Shown: piece after piece, positions 1,362-11,131 of the stretch
Position numbering within the stretch: the first letter of the stretch is position 1
How the letters are laid out: each line of letters begins with the position of its first letter
Source: a virus
Length of the DNA: 64,000 nt
Virus record (IMG/VR): IMGVR_UViG_3300044701_003269
Span: 32,001-96,000 of that record
Strand: one strand, 5' to 3'
Made by a program: the position numbers and the translations under genes
The notes under the pieces: model-generated
Databases searched by the model: none
The model's input: only the letters and a program-made list of their open reading frames with translations
What the model was told of the DNA's origin: nothing

Positions 1362-2441
1362 ATGACTGCTACAATTTCACAACAACGACAATTAAATACT
1401 TGGGAACAGTTCTGCAACTGGGTTACTTCAACCGATAATCGTCTTTATGTCGGTTGGTTTGGAGTCCTGATGATTCCCTGCCTGCTTGCTGCAACAACTT
1501 GCTTCATCATCGCATTCATCGGTGCTCCCCCTGTGGACATTGATGGTATCCGCGAACCTGTTGCTGGTTCCTTAATGTACGGAAACAACATCATCTCCGG
1601 TGCTGTTGTTCCTTCGTCCAATGCAATTGGACTGCACTTCTACCCCATCTGGGAAGCTGCTTCCCTAGATGAGTGGCTCTACAACGGTGGTCCTTTCCAA
1701 CTCGTTGTATTCCACTTCCTCATTGGCATCTATGCCTATATGGGTCGTGAGTGGGAACTTTCATACCGCCTAGGTATGCGTCCTTGGATCTGTGTTGCTT
1801 ACAGCGCCCCTGTTGCTGCTGCATCCGCAGTATTCCTGGTCTATCCTTTCGGTCAAGGTTCTTTCTCTGATGCTATGCCTCTTGGTATCTCTGGCACCTT
1901 TAACTATATGCTTGTGTTCCAGGCAGAACATAACATCCTGATGCACCCCTTCCACATGCTTGGAGTTGCTGGTGTCTTCGGTGGTTCTCTGTTCAGTGCT
2001 ATGCACGGTTCTCTGGTTACTTCCTCACTAGTTCGTGAAACCACTGAGAATGAGTCACAGAACTATGGTTACAAGTTCGGTCAAGAAGAAGAGACCTACA
2101 ACATCGTTGCTGCTCACGGTTATTTCGGACGCCTTATTTTCCAATATGCTTCCTTTAATAACTCACGTTCACTTCACTTCTTCCTTGCTGCTTGGCCTGT
2201 AGTTGGCATCTGGTTCACGGCGCTTGGTGTTAGCACCATGGCATTTAACCTGAATGGATTCAACTTCAACCAGTCTATCCTTGACAGTCAGGGTCGTGTG
2301 CTCAACACCTGGGCAGATGTTCTGAACCGTGCTGGTCTTGGAATGGAAGTGATGCATGAGCGTAACGCTCACAACTTCCCTCTCGATCTCGCTGCTGCTG
2401 AGAACACTCCTGTTGCTCTCACTGCACCTGCAATCGGTTGA
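1362..2441 (+). CDS. psbA: photosystem II reaction centre protein D1
   Basis: Full-length D1 ([31 protein letters not shown]); uninterrupted. Confidence 0.99.
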
Positions 2442-2500: not shown

Positions 2501-3562
2501 ATGGTATCTTCTGCTTTACAACAACCAATTCAACAAAGGGGGTGGTTCGATGTTCTCGATGATTGGCTTAAGCGTGATAGGTTTGTTTTTGTCGGTTGGT
2601 CTGGCCTTCTCCTTTTCCCTACAGCTTATCTCGCTCTTGGCGGTTGGCTTACAGGAACCACCTTTGCTACCAGTTGGTACACCCACGGCATTGCGTCTTC
2701 ATATTTGGAGGGGTGTAACTTTCTTACTGCTGCTGTCAGCACTCCTGCTGATGCTCTCGGACATAGCCTCTTACTCCTATGGGGTCCTGAAGCTCAGGGA
2801 GATTTCGTCCGCTGGGTCCAACTTGGGGGACTCTGGACTTTTGTGGCACTACACGGCGCTTTCAGCTTAATCGGATTTATGCTTCGGCAGTTCGAGATTG
2901 CTCGACTGGTTGGCATCCGACCATATAATGCAATCGCATTCTCTGGTCCTATCGCTGTATTTGTCAGCGTGTTTCTGATGTACCCTCTGGGTCAATCATC
3001 TTGGTTCTTCGCTCCCTCTTTTGGTGTGGCAGCAATCTTCAGGTTCCTGCTGTTCCTTCAAGGGTTCCACAACTGGACACTCAACCCCTTCCATATGATG
3101 GGAGTGGCAGGTATCCTAGGTGGTGCTCTGCTCTGTGCTATTCACGGTGCTACTGTGGAGAATACTCTCTATGAAGATAGCGACCAAGCAAACACTTTCA
3201 AAGCTTTTGAACCCACGCAAGAGGAGGAAACTTATTCGATGGTTACTGCTAACCGTTTCTGGTCACAGATTTTCGGTATTGCTTTTAGTAACAAGCGTTG
3301 GTTGCATTTCTTTATGCTCTTTGTTCCCGTCATGGGTTTATGGACCTCTAGTATCGGTATCATTGGACTCGCTCTTAATCTTCGTGCTTACGACTTTGTA
3401 TCTCAAGAAGTTCGTGCGGCGGAGGATCCGGAGTTCGAGACGTTCTACACAAAGAACATTCTATTAAATGAAGGCCTTCGTGCTTGGATGGCTCCAGTAG
3501 ACCAGCCTCATGAGAATTTTGTGTTCCCAGAGGAAGTTCTACCGCGAGGTAATGCACTTTAA
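2501..3562 (+). CDS. psbD: photosystem II reaction centre protein D2
   Basis: Full-length D2 ([16 protein letters not shown] ... [10 protein letters not shown]); GGAGG RBS upstream. Confidence 0.99.
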
Positions 3563-7175: not shown

Positions 7176-7502
7176 ATGGGAAAGCATTATCTTCTTAACT
7201 TATATGGATGCTCGTTTGTCCTTTTGGACGACGAGCGTTGTCTTATAGACTTATTAGAAAACGCAGCAGTTGCAAGTGGTGCTACTGTGATTCAGACTAT
7301 CTCGAAGAAGTTTGAACCACAGGGTGTTACTGTAATTTGTTTGTTATCGGAAAGTCATATTAGTATTCATACTTGGCCTGAGGAAGGTAAGGCAGCGGTG
7401 GATGTATATACCTGTGGTGATTGCAATCCCAAGATTGGATGCGACATTATCATTCACCAACTATCTGCATCTAATCACACGCTTAGTTACATAGAGCGTT
7501 GA
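7176..7502 (+). CDS. speD: S-adenosylmethionine decarboxylase proenzyme (pyruvoyl-dependent)
   Basis: GKH, FEPQGVT, LSESHISIHTWPE (E-S cleavage site), DVYTCG. Confidence 0.9.
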   Translation: MGKHYLLNLYGCSFVLLDDERCLIDLLENAAVASGATVIQTISKKFEPQGVTVICLLSESHISIHTWPEEGKAAVDVYTCGDCNPKIGCDIIIHQLSASNHTLSYIER

Positions 7503-7527
7503 CAGATTAGTAAAGAAGGTGTAGAAT
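7499..7527 (+). promoter_or_regulatory. sigma70-type (early) promoter
   Basis: TTGACA-17 bp-TAGAAT. Confidence 0.75.
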
Positions 7528-7549
7528 CAATCCAAATATACAATTTATC

Positions 7550-7753
7550 ATGGACTACAAACCCTATAGTATGGAATGGAGTAGGCGCAGATATCTTGCC
7601 GAAGCAATCCAAAAATATTTTGACACTGATGCTTCTTTAGATGTTGTTCTAGATGATATCGTAAGTGTCCTTGAAGAAAATGTAGAGCACCATAAAAGTC
7701 GTGCTGAAAGGTTTCAGGGTGTTTTGGATGGATTAAAATCACTCCCATATTAA
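7550..7753 (+). CDS. hypothetical protein
   Basis: 67 aa ORF after the promoter. Confidence 0.7.
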   Translation: MDYKPYSMEWSRRRYLAEAIQKYFDTDASLDVVLDDIVSVLEENVEHHKSRAERFQGVLDGLKSLPY

Positions 7754-7779
7754 TAAATAAACCTATACGGAGATTAAAC

Positions 7780-8097
7780 ATGCTCTCTACTCAGTATCGT
7801 TTACGCCTTGAAGCAATTTGCGAATGTATTGTAAAAGGCGAATCAGTAGAGTTAAGTGAGATGATTTGGGCTGAAAAACTTGCTAAGTCAAATCGTTCTG
7901 CTGCAACCATTTTGAGGCAAGCTAGACGCCGTGCTGCAAATCCAGATATGACAGAAGACAGTCTTGATGGATTTATGAATGCTTTGGACCTGGGGGATCC
8001 TGATCCAACCAATCATAGAACTCGTTTCAATGGCGTGGATGATATTATTGATTTCTTTGGTGGAGATAAACCAGACGACTGGAGACAAAGAGACTGA
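7780..8097 (+). CDS. hypothetical cyanophage protein
   Basis: GGAG RBS; MLSTQYRLRLE ... DDWRQRD. Confidence 0.8.
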   Translation: MLSTQYRLRLEAICECIVKGESVELSEMIWAEKLAKSNRSAATILRQARRRAANPDMTEDSLDGFMNALDLGDPDPTNHRTRFNGVDDIIDFFGGDKPDDWRQRD

Positions 8098-8297
8098 TGA
8101 CATACGAAGAGTTTTTGGATATGCCAACAACTTTTATGGATGACATGCTTAAAGTGGTTAATATTAAAAACAAATATCGTTTAAAGTTTACAGAAGAAGA
8201 AACAGAAATTAATCACCATCTTTTAACTTATTGGGAAGAAATGAAGTTAAATGAGATGAGACATAGATTTGAAAAGTGTTGGGAGATAGAGGAATGA
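8097..8297 (+). CDS. hypothetical protein
   Basis: TGATG-coupled, 66 aa. Confidence 0.65.
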   Translation: MTYEEFLDMPTTFMDDMLKVVNIKNKYRLKFTEEETEINHHLLTYWEEMKLNEMRHRFEKCWEIEE

Positions 8298-8497
8298 AAT
8301 CCTTTCAAGAATTCTTATCTGAAGAAGAGAAATCTTCAAAAAGAACTGCTGGTTATATTAATGAACCAAAGGGAAATGAGAAGTGCTCTAACTGCAATAT
8401 GTGGAGACCACCGAACGCTTGCACTGCAGTGAGTGGTAAGATCTCACCCGATGGTTGGTGCAAGTGGCATCAATATAATAGAAAGAACCAAGATTAA
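8294..8497 (+). CDS. HiPIP-like [4Fe-4S] protein with capsid-targeting-like N-terminus
   Basis: GY-x3-P-x5-C-x2-C-x8-C-x2-V-x-G-x-I-x-P-x-GWC; N-terminus MKSFQEFLSEE; GAGG RBS before ATG 8294. Confidence 0.75.
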   Translation: MKSFQEFLSEEEKSSKRTAGYINEPKGNEKCSNCNMWRPPNACTAVSGKISPDGWCKWHQYNRKNQD

Positions 8498-8512
8498 GAA
8501 ATAATAAAATTG

Positions 8513-8526
8513 GTATAACATTTTAC
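8513..8526. promoter_or_regulatory. NtcA-type binding site
   Basis: GTA-taacattt-TAC (GTA-N8-TAC), 8 bp upstream of the -35 box, with an A/T-rich flank. Confidence 0.6.
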
Positions 8527-8534
8527 AAACCTAC

Positions 8535-8563
8535 TTGACTACATAGTTCAACGGGTCTATTAT
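8535..8563 (+). promoter_or_regulatory. sigma70-type promoter
   Basis: TTGACT-17 bp-TATTAT; predicted start ~8570 coincides with the RNA motif 5' end. Confidence 0.75.
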
Positions 8564-8570
8564 GACCTTA

Positions 8571-8666
8571 CGTTCATCGGAGAAATCCGACGCAAGTAGG
8601 ACGGCGGAACGGTACGTTCATTCGCTATTCGCAAATAGCGAACGCAAACCGCCCGAAGGAACGGGG
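8571..8666 (+). ncRNA. double glutamine-riboswitch-like RNA (glnA / Downstream-peptide class)
   Basis: Two units of CGTTCA-[hairpin]-CGCAA...GGAACG; hairpins TCGGA-GAAA-TCCGA and TTCGCTATT-CGCA-AATAGCGAA; AGTA/GAA E-loop; GGACGG/CCGCCC pairing. Confidence 0.75.
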
Positions 8667-8697
8667 CCTAAAAATCTCATTCTGGAGGAAAATCCTA

Positions 8698-8835
8698 ATG
8701 GCTAAAGTAGTATACCGTGGCATCGAATATGATACCCAGAAGCGTCTGGAGTATCAACAGCAAATGATGCAGCAACCCCAACAGTACAACGAAACCTATC
8801 GTGGTGTTAAGTTCGTAAAGGAGGGACATAAGTGA
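8698..8835 (+). CDS. DUF4278-like small protein (45 aa, two YRG motifs)
   Basis: MAKVVYRGIEYDTQKRLEYQQQMMQQPQQYNETYRGVKFVKEGHK; GGAGG RBS; below the ORF-track cutoff. Confidence 0.8.
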   Translation: MAKVVYRGIEYDTQKRLEYQQQMMQQPQQYNETYRGVKFVKEGHK

Positions 8836-9222: not shown

Positions 9223-9408
9223 ATGAATAGAGAAAAGCTTAAGTTGATTGTAAGAAATCTTGAGTCTTTGGTAGAATGTCTTAAAGAAGAAATTAATTCT
9301 GATATCGATACTGATATTAAAGACCCATATTACGAAGAAATTAAAACCTACTTAACTGATTACGACGAAGTGTTTTATGACGGAGATGAAGAAGACTATG
9401 CAAGATAA
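9223..9408 (+). CDS. hypothetical cyanophage protein
   Basis: [14 protein letters not shown]...DYDEVF. Confidence 0.7.
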
Positions 9409-10090
9409 TCAAGTCAAATTGATTAGTGTTACACCAGATGCAGAGAAGCATATGGCTTACTGTGCTCGTGTAAGTAATCCTGCTAACCAAGAGAATGAAA
9501 AGTTCTCTGGTTTGTTGAAGTATTGTATTCAACATCAGCATTGGAGTATCTTTGAACAAGCTTCAATGACTGTAGAGATTAATACCACTCGTGGTATCGC
9601 AGCACAAATTCTTCGTCACAGATCATTTACATATCAAGAATTTTCACAACGGTATGCAGATAGTTCCCTTCTAGGAGATACTATTCCTCTTCCAGAACTT
9701 CGTCGTCAGGACACTAAGAACCGTCAGAATAGTATTGATGATGTTGATCCTTATACTATTCAGAAGTATCAGATTCTAATGCAGCATCATTTTGGTGAAG
9801 CAATGAAACTCTATCAGGATATGCTTGATGCTGGAATTGCCAAGGAGTGTGCTAGGTTTGTATTGCCCTTAGCGACCCCTACACGCCTCTATATGACTGG
9901 CTCAGTAAGGTCTTGGATACATTATATTGATTTGCGATCGGGTCACGGTACACAGAAGGAACATATGGATATTGCAAACGCAGTGAAGTGTATCTTTACC
10001 TGTCAGTTCCCTGCAGTATCTGAAGCACTTGGTTGGAACCGTAATGGGTGTTCTGATTGTGTTGATCCACCATCTGTTATTATTGAATAA
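9398..10090 (+). CDS. thyX: flavin-dependent thymidylate synthase
   Basis: HWSIFEQ and ThyX signature [14 protein letters not shown]; ARFVLP. Confidence 0.95.
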
Positions 10091-10375: not shown

Positions 10376-11131
10376 ATGCCCGCAAAAAGAAATTCCCCTA
10401 AGTCTCCAGTACCTTTTGGAATGAGTAATAAGCAAATGAAAAGGAAAAAGCCAATCAACACTGATTTAATGAGGAAGATTGAGCCTCTTACTGACAATCA
10501 AGAGGAACTCTTCCGTTGTTACAAACTAGACCAAAACCTTGTAGCCTATGGATGTGCTGGTACTGGTAAGACTTTTATCACTCTTTATAATGCTTTAAGA
10601 GATGTACTTGACGAGAGAACCCCTTACGAAAAAATTTATATTGTACGTTCCCTTGTGGCAACTAGGGAGATTGGTTTTCTTCCGGGCGATCATGAGGATA
10701 AATCCTCTCTTTATCAGATTCCATATAAGAATATGGTAAAGTATATGTTTGAGATGCCATCAGAAACAGATTTTGAAATGCTTTACGGTAATCTCAAAAC
10801 ACAAGGAACTATTAGTTTCTGGAGTACTTCTTTTATTCGTGGAACTACCCTTGACAATGCAATCATCATTGTAGATGAATTTCAAAACTTGAATTATCAC
10901 GAACTTGATAGTATAATTACTCGTGTAGGTGAGAATAGTAAGATTATGTTCTGTGGTGATGCCACTCAATCTGACCTTATTAAGACGAATGAAAAGAATG
11001 GAATTGTTGATTTCATGAAAGTTCTTCGTATCATGCCTTCAGTTGATATTGTTGAATTTGGAGTAGAAGATATTGTTCGCTCTGGATTGGTGAAAGAATA
11101 CATCTTGGCAAAAATGGAAATCGGAGTATGA
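10376..11131 (+). CDS. phoH: PhoH-like ATPase
   Basis: GCAGTGKT Walker A, IGFLPGD, IRGTTL, DEFQN, GDATQSD, DIVRSG. Confidence 0.95.
   Translation: MPAKRNSPKSPVPFGMSNKQMKRKKPINTDLMRKIEPLTDNQEELFRCYKLDQNLVAYGCAGTGKTFITLYNALRDVLDERTPYEKIYIVRSLVATREIGFLPGDHEDKSSLYQIPYKNMVKYMFEMPSETDFEMLYGNLKTQGTISFWSTSFIRGTTLDNAIIIVDEFQNLNYHELDSIITRVGENSKIMFCGDATQSDLIKTNEKNGIVDFMKVLRIMPSVDIVEFGVEDIVRSGLVKEYILAKMEIGV

What the first reader, a model, noticed from the sequence alone, without database searches (positions are those of the whole stretch)
8294..8497. HiPIP-like iron-sulfur protein with a T4 internal-protein capsid-targeting-like leader
Seen: four cysteines in C-x2-C-x8-C-x12-C spacing with upstream Tyr and terminal P-x-GWC-x-W; no Tat/Sec signal; N-terminus MKSFQEFLSEE. 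Established: this Cys/aromatic pattern typifies small HiPIPs, which are normally periplasmic electron carriers of proteobacteria. T4 internal proteins begin with a capsid-targeting sequence (MKTYQEFIAE) cleaved after Glu by gp21. Inference: a redox or Fe-S protein packaged in the head and injected with the DNA, as an electron carrier, redox sensor or iron cargo.
Basis: partly seen in the sequence, partly recalled or inferred. Interest (0 to 1): 0.78.

Follow-up and report, generated by a model that had tools for sequence, protein, structure and literature searches.

The report
Head-targeted iron-sulfur HiPIP of a cyanophage
A freshwater T4-like cyanophage encodes a tiny iron-sulfur electron-carrier protein (HiPIP) whose bacterial export signal is replaced by the ten-residue tag that T4-type phages use to load proteins into their heads, so the virus probably carries an iron-sulfur protein in its particle, though no experiment has shown this.

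Summary
ORF 8294-8497 (+) encodes 67 residues with C31-x2-C34-x8-C43-x12-C56, Y21, W37, a P-D-G-W-C-K-W end and no signal peptide. It is a genuine PioC-type HiPIP. A profile of 18 homologues hits PioC (PDB 6xyv) at E 2.3e-14. A confident model (pLDDT 86.9) superposes on PioC at 1.4 A.

The leader MKSFQEFLSE matches T4 IPII/IPIII MKTYQEFIAE, read from the T4 record, at the four positions that published mutagenesis defines (4, 7, 8, 10). It is under peptide-level purifying selection: L8 is invariant through four codons and dN/dS is about 0.09.

The same leader type heads virion-proven enzymes of cyanomyoviruses S-SCSM1 and S-SM1 and at least 120 distinct proteins in IMG/VR. In other phages the HiPIP module is fused to MuF and prohead-protease proteins. 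None was found in 401 sampled cyanobacterial genomes.

Packaging, cleavage, ejection and iron binding are inferred, not shown. The window's own contig is a fragment without the head genes.

This scan noted the same protein on at least four other genomes. I found no paper describing it.

The parts
8294..8497 (+). HiPIP gene: 67 codons plus TAA (protein P0001)
   Evidence: Pfam HIPIP E 3.1e-4, 21.4 bits against a cut-off of 22. Profile A1 against PDB PioC 6xyv, E 2.3e-14. 88% identical to S-SRM01 gp061.
8294..8323 (+). Leader, codons 1-10 (MKSFQEFLSE): T4-type capsid-targeting-like propeptide ending in the L-x-E protease motif
   Evidence: T4 IPII/IPIII begin MKTYQEFIAE. The roles of positions 4, 7, 8 and 10 come from passages of PMC9026906. 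K2, F7, L8 and E10 are invariant in 47 distinct gene sequences, L8 through 4 codons; dN/dS 0.09. In the model it is a low-confidence separate helix (pLDDT about 60).
8327..8473 (+). HiPIP domain, residues 12-60, aligned to PioC residues 3-51
   Evidence: alignment. AF2 residues 11-60 have pLDDT above 90. Foldseek: 6xyv TM 0.79, rmsd 1.4 A; 1isu TM 0.73, rmsd 1.1 A.
8384..8461 (+). The four predicted cluster-ligand Cys codons: C31 at 8384-8386, C34 at 8393-8395, C43 at 8420-8422, C56 at 8459-8461
   Evidence: Read directly. Invariant in A1. The spacing equals that of Iro (Cys24, 27, 36, 49) quoted in PMC10654088.
7499..7527 (+). Sigma-70-like promoter TTGACA-17-TAGAAT (11 of 12), ahead of the run of four small + strand ORFs that ends with the HiPIP gene
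   Evidence: This is a consensus match only: 16 such sites were found against 14.1 expected in the region.
7750..7757 (+). AATAAATA, a cyanomyovirus late-promoter-like motif, 22 nt before the ORF starting at 7780
   Evidence: The same motif sits at the same place in S-SRM01. The NATAAATA consensus is from passages of PMC2984593. 45 of 69 related IMG/VR loci have NATAAATA within 700 nt upstream.
7780..8097 (+). Upstream ORF of 105 aa, co-oriented; homologue of S-SRM01 gp060, which directly precedes the HiPIP gene there
   Evidence: BLASTP 55% identity, E 5e-38. Synteny.
8097..8297 (+). Small ORF of 66 aa inserted between the two genes here; its stop overlaps the HiPIP start (ATGA). S-SRM01 annotates no gene between gp060 and gp061.

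Best explanation
The gene encodes a minimal PioC-type HiPIP, a [4Fe-4S] one-electron carrier. The bacterial Tat export signal is replaced by a T4-type capsid targeting sequence.

Proposed mechanism, step by step:
1. The 67-residue precursor is made in the infected Synechococcus, and the host Fe-S machinery loads the cluster onto C31, C34, C43 and C56 (inferred).
2. The leader MKSFQEFLSE, through F4 and F7, docks the protein onto the scaffolding core of the assembling prohead (inferred from T4).
3. The gp21-type prohead protease cuts after L8-S9-E10 (inferred from the L/I-x-E rule). This leaves a basic 57-residue HiPIP, net charge about +5 and pI about 9.3, among the packaged DNA.
4. The small compact protein leaves with the DNA at the next infection and is present in the new cell before any phage gene is expressed (inferred).

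Shown here: the HiPIP identity, the leader match, selection on the leader, virion location of other proteins that carry the same leader type, and fusion of the HiPIP module to head-interior proteins in other phages.

What it does after delivery is open. My preferred guess, about 0.3, is an early takeover or counter-defence redox role. In other phages the module travels fused to counter-defence-type cargo (Acb1, NUDIX, NMNAT-like cytidyltransferase, InPase).
For: HiPIP identity:
- Profile against PDB: PioC E 2.3e-14, and 9 of the 14 sequences listed are HiPIPs.
- Pfam HIPIP E 3.1e-4.
- AF2 with 133 sequences gives pLDDT 86.9 and pTM 0.70. 17 of the 19 Foldseek hits listed (20 counted at E <= 10) are HiPIPs, with PioC at TM 0.79 and rmsd 1.4 A.
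- The Cys spacing and the three aromatic positions are in register with Iro/PioC as described in PMC10654088.

Leader:
- It matches T4 IPII/IPIII: 6 of 10 residues are identical and 4 conservative, including positions 4, 7, 8 and 10.
- Family variants read MKTFKEF, identical to the first 7 residues of T4 IPI.
- K2, F7, L8 and E10 are invariant in 47 distinct genes; leader pS is 0.58, pN 0.097 and dN/dS 0.09.
- PioC alignment starts at residue 12, so the leader occupies exactly the place of the signal peptide.

The leader as a general virion tag:
- The pattern M-K-x-F-x-x-F-[LIVMF]-x-E hit 8 places in 5 cyanophage genomes. All were ORF starts on the coding strand, with 0 hits for the reversed-pattern control.
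- The hits include S-SCSM1 NMNAT, a virion protein by mass spectrometry (PMC9602691), and S-SM1 SSM1_190 (T4-GC190), detected in virions (PMC3037559).
112 of 120 are at ORF starts. 116 cargos fall into 47 clusters, and 85 of 116 have pI above 9.
- The same contig has a 227-aa very basic protein that starts MRSFQQFMSICEE.

Fusions: of 28 long relatives scanned, 6 carry MuF or head-maturation-protease domains, 3 a cytidyltransferase, 2 InPase, 3 GH19 and 1 a PNK-like domain.

gp21-type protease (PF03420) is present in S-SRM01, S-SCSM1 and a complete 247-kb leader-bearing IMG/VR contig.

No host counterpart: 0 of 401 sampled cyanobacterial genomes and 0 of 5 picocyanobacteria match the profile. 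The positive control on the own contig gave E 2.5e-32.

The sigma-70-like promoter is not an objection. T4 ipI, ipII and ipIII are themselves preceded by early-type promoters and have no TATAAATA within 150 nt.
Against: - No direct evidence exists that this protein is in virions. The S-SRM01 paper reports no virion proteome (passages only).
- The window's own contig (83% complete) holds no gp21, no gp23 and no NMNAT homologue, so protease and scaffold are inferred from relatives.
- The residue after the predicted cut is Glu (E10|E11). It is Ala in T4 IPII/IPIII and in the cyanophage NMNAT leaders.
- Position 4 is Leu in 3 of 47 distinct genes.
- The second leader-bearing ORF of S-SCSM1 (gp030) is not annotated as a virion protein.
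- S-PM2 has no such leader at all, so the tag is not universal in the family.
- The nearest promoter-like site upstream of the four-ORF run is early-type, and 24 of 69 related loci lack any NATAAATA within 700 nt.
- 33 of 133 short relatives have neither signal nor leader, so unpackaged cytoplasmic forms may exist.
- Basic charge is only modestly higher than in signal-bearing relatives: +5.7 against +2.9.
- Iron binding is predicted from sequence only.
Confidence: 0.58

Rival explanations
1. Unpackaged auxiliary redox protein. The HiPIP stays in the cytoplasm of the infected cell and shuttles electrons for a phage or host enzyme. The N-terminal helix is only a structural extension, or its likeness to the T4 tag is convergent.
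For: The gene lies among metabolic genes (speD-like ORF 7176-7502, thyX-like 9377-10090, phoH-like 10376-11131), in a photosynthetic cyanophage that carries two Photo_RC-family genes, psbA and psbD by my reading of order and length. A sigma-70-like early-type promoter lies at 7499-7527. 33 of 133 short relatives have neither signal nor leader. There is no virion proteome.
Against: The leader matches T4 at all four functionally defined positions and is held by purifying selection. The same leader type is on virion-proven enzymes. The HiPIP module is fused to MuF or prohead protease in other phages. Unlike typical cyanophage metabolic genes it has no counterpart in 401 sampled cyanobacteria, so no obvious host partner exists. 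T4 IP genes also have early-type promoters.
Confidence: 0.25
2. Packaged, but working inside the capsid rather than as an injected effector. For example it could be a DNA-bound redox buffer that traps oxidative damage during the free-virion phase, or a compact basic counter-ion or assembly factor of the head core.
For: The mature part is basic (+5, pI 9.3). The module is fused to head maturation proteases and MuF, proteins that act during assembly.
Against: T4 proteins with this tag are delivered into the host cell (PMC9026906 passages). The fusion partners include enzymes that make sense only in a host cell: Acb1, NUDIX and cytidyltransferase. Nothing here measures either role.
Confidence: 0.2
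3. Not an iron-sulfur protein in this setting. The four Cys bind zinc or form disulfides, and the fold is reused as a small stable knot.
For: Cluster binding is not testable here. The single-sequence Pfam score is just under the cut-off, 21.4 against 22. L32 zinc-ribbon proteins appear as weak hits at E about 0.08.
Against: The aromatic residues that shield the cluster in HiPIPs (Y21, W37, W55) are conserved in register with Iro/PioC. The profile match to PioC, E 2.3e-14, is far stronger than to any zinc protein. All top fold matches are cluster-bearing HiPIPs.
Confidence: 0.07

Closest known systems
PioC of Rhodopseudomonas palustris TIE-1 (PDB 6xyv), the 54-residue minimal HiPIP; also Iro of Acidithiobacillus ferrooxidans and the Rhodocyclus tenuis HiPIP (1isu)
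   Same: 39% identity over 49 aligned columns. Profile E 2.3e-14. Same Cys spacing and aromatic positions. Same compact fold: TM 0.79, rmsd 1.4 A. The mature length after leader removal (57 aa) is about that of PioC.
   Different: PioC is exported to the periplasm and passes electrons from PioAB to the photosynthetic reaction centre (PMC10654088 passages). The phage protein has no export signal and a T4-type leader instead. It is encoded by a virus whose host phylum showed no HiPIP in 401 sampled genomes.
T4 internal proteins IPI, IPII and IPIII with their capsid targeting sequence, processed by the gp21 prohead protease
   Same: A ten-residue N-terminal leader, M-K-[TS]-[YF]-Q-E-F-[IL]-x-E, with L/I-x-E before the cut. 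A small basic mature part. A gene preceded by an early-type promoter and placed away from the head genes.
   Different: There is no sequence similarity beyond the leader. The cargo is a metal-cluster redox protein, whereas IPI is a restriction-endonuclease inhibitor (PMC3012670 passage). The residue after the cut is Glu, not Ala. Packaging is not demonstrated.
Virion-associated NMNAT/cytidyltransferase (T4-GC190) of T4-like cyanophages (S-SCSM1 ORF91, S-SM1 SSM1_190, Syn9 gp184)
   Same: It starts with the same leader type: MKSFLQFLKEA, MKKFSAFLNEA, MKNFHQFITEA. It was detected in purified virions by mass spectrometry. In some uncultured phages a cytidyltransferase of this PHROG family and a HiPIP domain are in one polypeptide (P0051, P0060, P0061).
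   Different: It is an enzyme of about 400 aa encoded in the late structural region. The papers whose passages I read do not mention a targeting leader, and no paper in the library pairs cyanophage with the T4 tag.
Encapsulin cargo loading, including ferredoxin and ferritin-like cargo (recalled, not looked up here)
   Same: A short terminal peptide directs a redox or iron protein into an HK97-fold shell.
   Different: It is a cellular compartment, not a virion. The targeting peptide is unrelated, and there is no protease trimming and no ejection.

Membership tests
HiPIP (Pfam PF01355) | Four Cys ligands in C-x2-C-x(8-16)-C-x(12-13)-C | tested here: met
   C31-x2-C34-x8-C43-x12-C56. Invariant in A1. 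Identical to the spacing of Iro Cys24/27/36/49.
HiPIP (Pfam PF01355) | Conserved Tyr and aromatic residues that shield the cluster | tested here: met
   Y21 (C31-10), W37 (C31+6) and W55 (C56-1) are in register with Iro Tyr14, Phe30 and Tyr48/Trp. Y21 is invariant and W55 is at least 90% conserved in 133 sequences.
HiPIP (Pfam PF01355) | Significant sequence-model match | tested here: met
   The single sequence is just under the Pfam cut-off (21.4 against 22 bits, E 3.1e-4). The family profile hits solved HiPIPs: 6xyv at 2.3e-14, 3h31 at 7.4e-5, 1isu at 7.1e-4.
HiPIP (Pfam PF01355) | HiPIP fold | tested here: met
   Predicted model pLDDT 86.9. The Foldseek top hits are HiPIPs, with PioC at TM 0.79 and rmsd 1.4 A. 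This is a prediction, not a solved structure.
HiPIP (Pfam PF01355) | [4Fe-4S]3+/2+ cluster with a positive potential (+50 to +500 mV; PMC7462912 abstract) | not testable with these tools
   Needs UV-visible and EPR spectroscopy and voltammetry of the protein.
HiPIP (Pfam PF01355) | Tat/Sec signal and periplasmic location (usual, not strictly defining) | tested here: not met
   The N-terminus has no RR motif and no hydrophobic stretch. By my script's classification, 57 of 133 short relatives carry signals; this clade carries the leader instead.
T4-type CTS-bearing internal head proteins | Leader at the extreme N-terminus resembling MKTYQEFIAE, with aromatic residues at positions 4 and 7 (targeting) | tested here: met
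   MKSFQEFLSE against T4 IPII/IPIII. The roles of positions 4 and 7 are from PMC9026906 passages. F7 is in 47 of 47 and F4 in 44 of 47 distinct genes.
T4-type CTS-bearing internal head proteins | L/I-x-E processing motif at positions 8-10 | tested here: met
   L8-S9-E10. L8 and E10 are in 47 of 47 genes. The motif is from PMC9026906 passages. P1' is Glu rather than Ala.
T4-type CTS-bearing internal head proteins | Genome encodes a gp21-type prohead protease and a T4-type head | tested here: inconclusive
   PF03420 and PF07068 were not found in the window's own contig, an 83%-complete fragment. PF03420 is present in S-SRM01 (which encodes the 88%-identical homologue), S-SCSM1, T4 and a 247-kb leader-bearing contig.
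T4-type CTS-bearing internal head proteins | The same leader on several unrelated proteins of one phage and its relatives | tested here: met
   The own contig has a 227-aa basic protein starting MRSFQQFMSICEE. S-SRM01 has 4 leader-bearing ORFs. IMG/VR has 47 cargo clusters.
T4-type CTS-bearing internal head proteins | Physical presence in the virion, removal of the leader, and ejection | not testable with these tools
   Only indirect evidence: leader-bearing NMNAT/cytidyltransferase was detected in S-SCSM1 and S-SM1 virions.

The most novel reading that the evidence does not exclude
T4-like cyanophages, and other phages through MuF, protease or portal fusions, routinely pack a [4Fe-4S] high-potential redox protein next to their DNA and inject it. 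The first phage-made molecule to act in the cell would then be an electron-transfer or iron-sulfur effector of a type the cyanobacterial host does not itself encode. This would be a redox arm of early takeover or counter-defence, or a built-in protector of the packaged genome against oxidative damage.
Probability: 0.35. Interest if true: 0.85.

Novelty: new variant of a known kind. Interest (0 to 1): 0.66.

Why it matters
Proteins packed with phage DNA act before any phage gene is expressed. The known examples are nuclease inhibitors, ADP-ribosyltransferases and polymerases.

An iron-sulfur electron carrier as head cargo would add redox chemistry to that repertoire. It would put iron inside virions of abundant aquatic phages, which is relevant to iron budgets and to virion stability in sunlit, oxic water. 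It would also give a simple sequence rule, M-K-x-F-x-x-F-[LIV]-x-E at the N-terminus, for predicting the injected proteome of cyanomyoviruses.

The idea is directly testable on an existing isolate. S-SRM01 gp061 is 88% identical to this protein.

I found no paper describing a phage-encoded or virion HiPIP or a capsid targeting sequence in cyanophages. That library lacks most subscription journals.

Tried and rejected
- PHROGs gave no family for the protein.
- The first AF2 run, with 18 close homologues, was useless (pLDDT 49.8). I did not fold-search it. A 133-sequence alignment fixed this.
- tblastn against isolate phages found only S-SRM01, present as two records of one phage.
- Exact TATAAATA is absent near the gene: 4 matches in the window, all on the minus strand and far away, against 5.1 expected by chance.
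- I searched the own contig for gp21, gp23 and the NMNAT homologue. None was found. The contig is a fragment, so this is no evidence of absence.
- The search for related loci on genome contigs with the diverse alignment A2 failed because no stretch was conserved enough. I used the one scan on the Photo_RC-family ORF at 1362-2441 (psbA by my reading) to obtain cyanobacterial handles instead.
- Metatranscriptome contigs of 4 runs laid on 7450-8750 covered the glutamine-riboswitch region (8565-8750) and, in one run, parts of the upstream ORFs. They did not cover the HiPIP gene. These are contigs with small shares, so this says nothing about expression.
- The supplement search of PMC3037559 for the cytidylyltransferase row of Table S8 found nothing. 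I rely on the main-text passage and the GenBank note 'T4-LIKE GC: 190'.
- The neighbouring ORF 8097-8297 starts MTYEEFLDM. I considered it as a second tagged protein and rejected it: it has no K2, the register is shifted, and there is no Glu at the cut position.
- A second L/I-x-E, I22-N23-E24, lies inside the domain. It is followed by Pro, and position 22 is Q in most relatives, so I do not take it as a cut site.
- Charge as a discriminator: the leader class is more basic than the signal class, but only modestly, and the whole subfamily is basic.
- Of 7 large leader-bearing IMG/VR contigs tested for T4-type head genes, 3 were positive. The 4 negatives are 30-66% complete fragments.
Full report
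**1. What is there**

The window is bases 32001-96000 of a 174,186-base viral contig, CheckV 83% complete and linear. The contig carries two Photo_RC-family genes, which I read as psbA and psbD. Near the finding lie speD-like, thyX-like and phoH-like ORFs; those names are my reading of the translations, apart from phoH and thymidylate synthase, which appear as annotations under DNA matches. The nearest isolate is the freshwater Synechococcus myovirus S-SRM01 (Kyanoviridae), whose gp061, annotated 'hypothetical protein', is 88% identical to the protein in question.

The ORF at 8294-8497 (+) encodes 67 residues. Its ATG overlaps the stop of the preceding small ORF. The ORF listing also offers a GTG start at 8276. 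In related loci the in-frame open stretch upstream is only 2-9 codons, and S-SRM01 is annotated from the same ATG. MKSF... is therefore the real N-terminus.

**2. It is a HiPIP**

- Pfam HIPIP scores E 3.1e-4, 21.4 bits against a cut-off of 22.
- A profile of 18 close homologues searched against all PDB sequences gives PioC (6xyv) at E 2.3e-14, the Rhodothermus HiPIP 3h31 at 7.4e-5 and 1isu at 7.1e-4. Nine of the 14 listed sequences are HiPIPs. The rest are weak L32 and cytochrome hits at E of 0.08 or more.
- The exhaustive representative search finds 2,353 relatives at E <= 0.001.
- With 133 of these as alignment, AlphaFold gives pLDDT 86.9 and pTM 0.70, with residues 11-60 above 90. The first attempt, with 18 sequences, had failed at pLDDT 49.8.
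- Foldseek against the PDB returns PioC (TM 0.79, rmsd 1.4 A, 39% identity) and 1isu (TM 0.73, rmsd 1.1 A). Of the 19 hits listed (20 counted at E <= 10), 17 are HiPIPs and two are benzylsuccinate synthase small subunits.
- The Cys spacing equals that of Iro (Cys24, 27, 36, 49). Its three stabilising aromatic residues are matched in register (passages of PMC10654088).
- Cluster binding and redox potential cannot be tested here.

**3. The leader**

PioC aligns from residue 12 of the phage protein. In bacterial relatives a signal peptide precedes that point; many show an RR motif and a hydrophobic stretch. By my script's classification, 57 of 133 short relatives are of this kind. In this clade the first ten residues are MKSFQEFLSE instead.

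From the T4 record, IPII and IPIII begin MKTYQEFIAEA and IPI begins MKTFKEF. Passages of a review of Black's work (PMC9026906) state the following:
- The first ten residues of IPIII suffice for loading into the head.
- Targeting depends mainly on residues 4 and 7, and processing on residues 8 and 10.
- gp21 cuts after Glu in the motif L/I-x-E.

The phage HiPIP has F4, F7, L8 and E10.

Among 73 genes extracted from 80 related IMG/VR loci (47 distinct DNA sequences), K2, F7, L8 and E10 never change. L8 is written with four different codons. Positions 3, 5, 6 and 9 vary. Synonymous divergence in the leader is near saturation (pS 0.58) while pN is 0.097, giving dN/dS of about 0.09, against 0.04 for the core. 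The peptide, not the DNA, is what is conserved. In the model the leader is a separate, low-confidence helix.

**4. Is this leader a virion tag in cyanophages?**

Three independent lines bear on this.

(a) Isolate genomes. A degenerate pattern for M-K-x-F-x-x-F-[LIVMF]-x-E was run on five isolate genomes. It hit 8 places, all at ORF starts on the coding strand, with no hit for the reversed-pattern control:
- S-SM1: 1 hit
- Syn9: 1 hit
- S-PM2: 0 hits
- S-SCSM1: 2 hits
- S-SRM01: 4 hits

The S-SM1 hit is SSM1_190, a cytidyltransferase of cluster T4-GC190. Sullivan et al. report T4-GC190 as detected in purified S-SM1 virions (PMC3037559 passage). One S-SCSM1 hit is the NMNAT (ORF91), one of 45 proteins found in that virion by mass spectrometry (PMC9602691 passages; RefSeq note). 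Its homologues start MKSFLQFLKEA, MKNFHQFITEA, MKKFSAFLNEA, MKKFSAFLSEA and MKSFAQFVKEA. The other S-SCSM1 hit, gp030, lies between two 'virion protein' genes but is not itself so annotated.

(b) IMG/VR. 112 of the 120 have at most 30 open codons upstream. The 116 cargos of usable length fall into 47 sequence clusters, and 85 of 116 have pI above 9. By eye they include ADP-ribosyltransferase-like and many lysine-rich proteins. Of seven large contigs carrying such genes, three have T4-type gp21 or gp23. The four without are 30-66% complete.

(c) The window's own contig. It has a second tagged gene outside the window: a 227-residue, very basic protein starting MRSFQQFMSICEE. It has homologues in P-TIM68, S-SM2, S-B05 and others.

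**5. The HiPIP module and phage heads elsewhere**

I scanned 28 long relatives from the top 150 hits against Pfam and PHROGs. The partner domains found were:
- Mu F-like head morphogenesis domain: P0044
- DUF2213/head maturation protease: P0048, P0088, P0157
- S78 prohead protease with ChaB: P0096
- Acb1 with a protease-like region: P0150
- InPase, with PHROG names 'minor head protein', 'virion structural protein' and 'DarB-like antirestriction': P0077, P0119
- The cyanophage-type cytidyltransferase: P0051, P0060, P0061
- GH19 lysin domains: P0035, P0066, P0067
- A polynucleotide-kinase-like domain: P0065
- No named partner: the remaining 13

Several of these also begin with leaders of the M-[KR]-x-x-[DE]-L-x-E type. 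This agrees with earlier notes of this scan, which report the module on a portal and on an ejection protein. I did not check those two cases.

**6. No host counterpart**

The 133-sequence profile found nothing in five Synechococcus/Cyanobium genomes. It found nothing in 401 genomes drawn across the cyanobacterial phylum. It finds the window's gene at E 2.5e-32. This is 'not found in those searched', not proof of absence. It sets this gene apart from host-derived cyanophage metabolic genes.

**7. Expression signals**

A good sigma-70-like site (TTGACA-17-TAGAAT) lies at 7499-7527, ahead of four small co-oriented ORFs that end with the HiPIP gene. Such sites are no more frequent here than in shuffles.

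AATAAATA, the cyanomyovirus late-promoter consensus (PMC2984593 passage), lies 22 nt before the ORF at 7780 and at the same place in S-SRM01. 45 of 69 related loci have such a motif within 700 nt upstream; these loci are homologous and not independent.

T4 ipI, ipII and ipIII are themselves preceded by early-type promoters and have no TATAAATA within 150 nt. An early-type promoter therefore does not argue against a head protein.

Metatranscriptome contigs gave no information on the gene.

**8. Reading**

Best explanation (0.58): a PioC-type HiPIP loaded into the prohead by a T4-type tag, trimmed after E10, kept with the DNA and probably co-ejected.

Main rival (0.25): an unpackaged cytoplasmic redox protein.

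Within the packaged reading, an in-capsid role (0.2) competes with an injected-effector role.

A non-iron role of the fold is unlikely (0.07).

Weak points:
- There is no proteome of this phage or of S-SRM01.
- The head genes are missing from the contig.
- Glu rather than Ala follows the predicted cut.
- Position 4 is Leu in 3 of 47 variants.
- 33 of 133 short relatives are 'bare', with neither signal nor leader.

**9. Novelty**

HiPIPs and the T4 tag are both well known. Their combination, an Fe-S carrier as head cargo, was not found in the searchable library: 'HiPIP' with 'phage' gave 20 papers, of which 15 were listed, none on a phage-encoded HiPIP by title or abstract. 'Polyvalent proteins' with 'HiPIP' gave none. 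'High potential iron-sulfur protein' with 'bacteriophage' and 'virion' gave none. 'Cyanophage' with 'capsid targeting sequence' gave only the T4 review.

That library omits most subscription journals, and I did not read the supplements of the proteome papers beyond one search.

This scan has already noted the same protein on at least four other genomes, and tagged cargo in many cyanophages. The present window is a further instance, with independent tests.

Noticed in passing
window 8569-8667 (+): A glutamine riboswitch (Rfam RF01739, 37.2 bits against gathering 35) lies directly downstream of the HiPIP gene. It follows a sigma-70-like site at 8535-8563 and precedes micro-ORFs at 8698-8835 and beyond. 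Metatranscriptome contigs of three runs cover 8565-8750.
   Followed up: partly
L002:4971-5654 (G000:C1:129971-130654, outside the window): A 227-aa, very basic, Lys/Arg/Ala-rich protein starts MRSFQQFMSICEE, with a terminator-like hairpin and a TTGACT-18-TATAGT promoter-like site upstream. Homologues are in P-TIM68, S-SM2, S-B05 and SynMITS9220M01, and many are in IMG/VR with MKTFQEFI.EA leaders. It is a candidate internal head protein of this phage.
   Followed up: partly
window 8097-8297 (+): A 66-aa ORF is inserted between the gp060 homologue and the HiPIP gene; S-SRM01 annotates no gene between gp060 and gp061. It starts MTYEEFLDM, reminiscent of the tag, but it lacks K2 and the Glu at the cut position.
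   Followed up: partly
L135 (S-SRM01 176324 onward) and L133 (S-SRM01 126582 onward): S-SRM01 has two more leader-bearing ORFs with TATAAATA motifs just upstream. One is a 447-aa low-complexity basic protein (MKSFSQFLEES...). The other is a 102-aa acidic protein of a family that recurs in IMG/VR (MKSFKQFISESVNI.GDFNG...) and as S-SCSM1 gp030 between two virion-protein genes.
   Followed up: no
Proteins P0014-like cargos in L014, L078, L089, L113 (IMG/VR): Leader-bearing proteins show an 'YHGT ... STS'-like pattern that looks like ADP-ribosyltransferase motifs by eye. This would parallel T4 Alt. I did not scan them against any family library.
   Followed up: no
P0020, P0022, P0026 (representative library): The closest signal-bearing relatives of the phage HiPIP are tandem double-HiPIP proteins of 154-164 aa. 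Their organisms are unknown, because the library holds no names.
   Followed up: no
window 1362-2441 and 2501-3562 (+): Two adjacent Photo_RC-family genes of 359 and 353 aa, psbA and psbD by my reading. The first is 95% identical to a Synechococcus MAG copy and 93% identical to Cyanobium and Synechococcus isolates, which fits a freshwater or estuarine picocyanobacterial host.
   Followed up: partly
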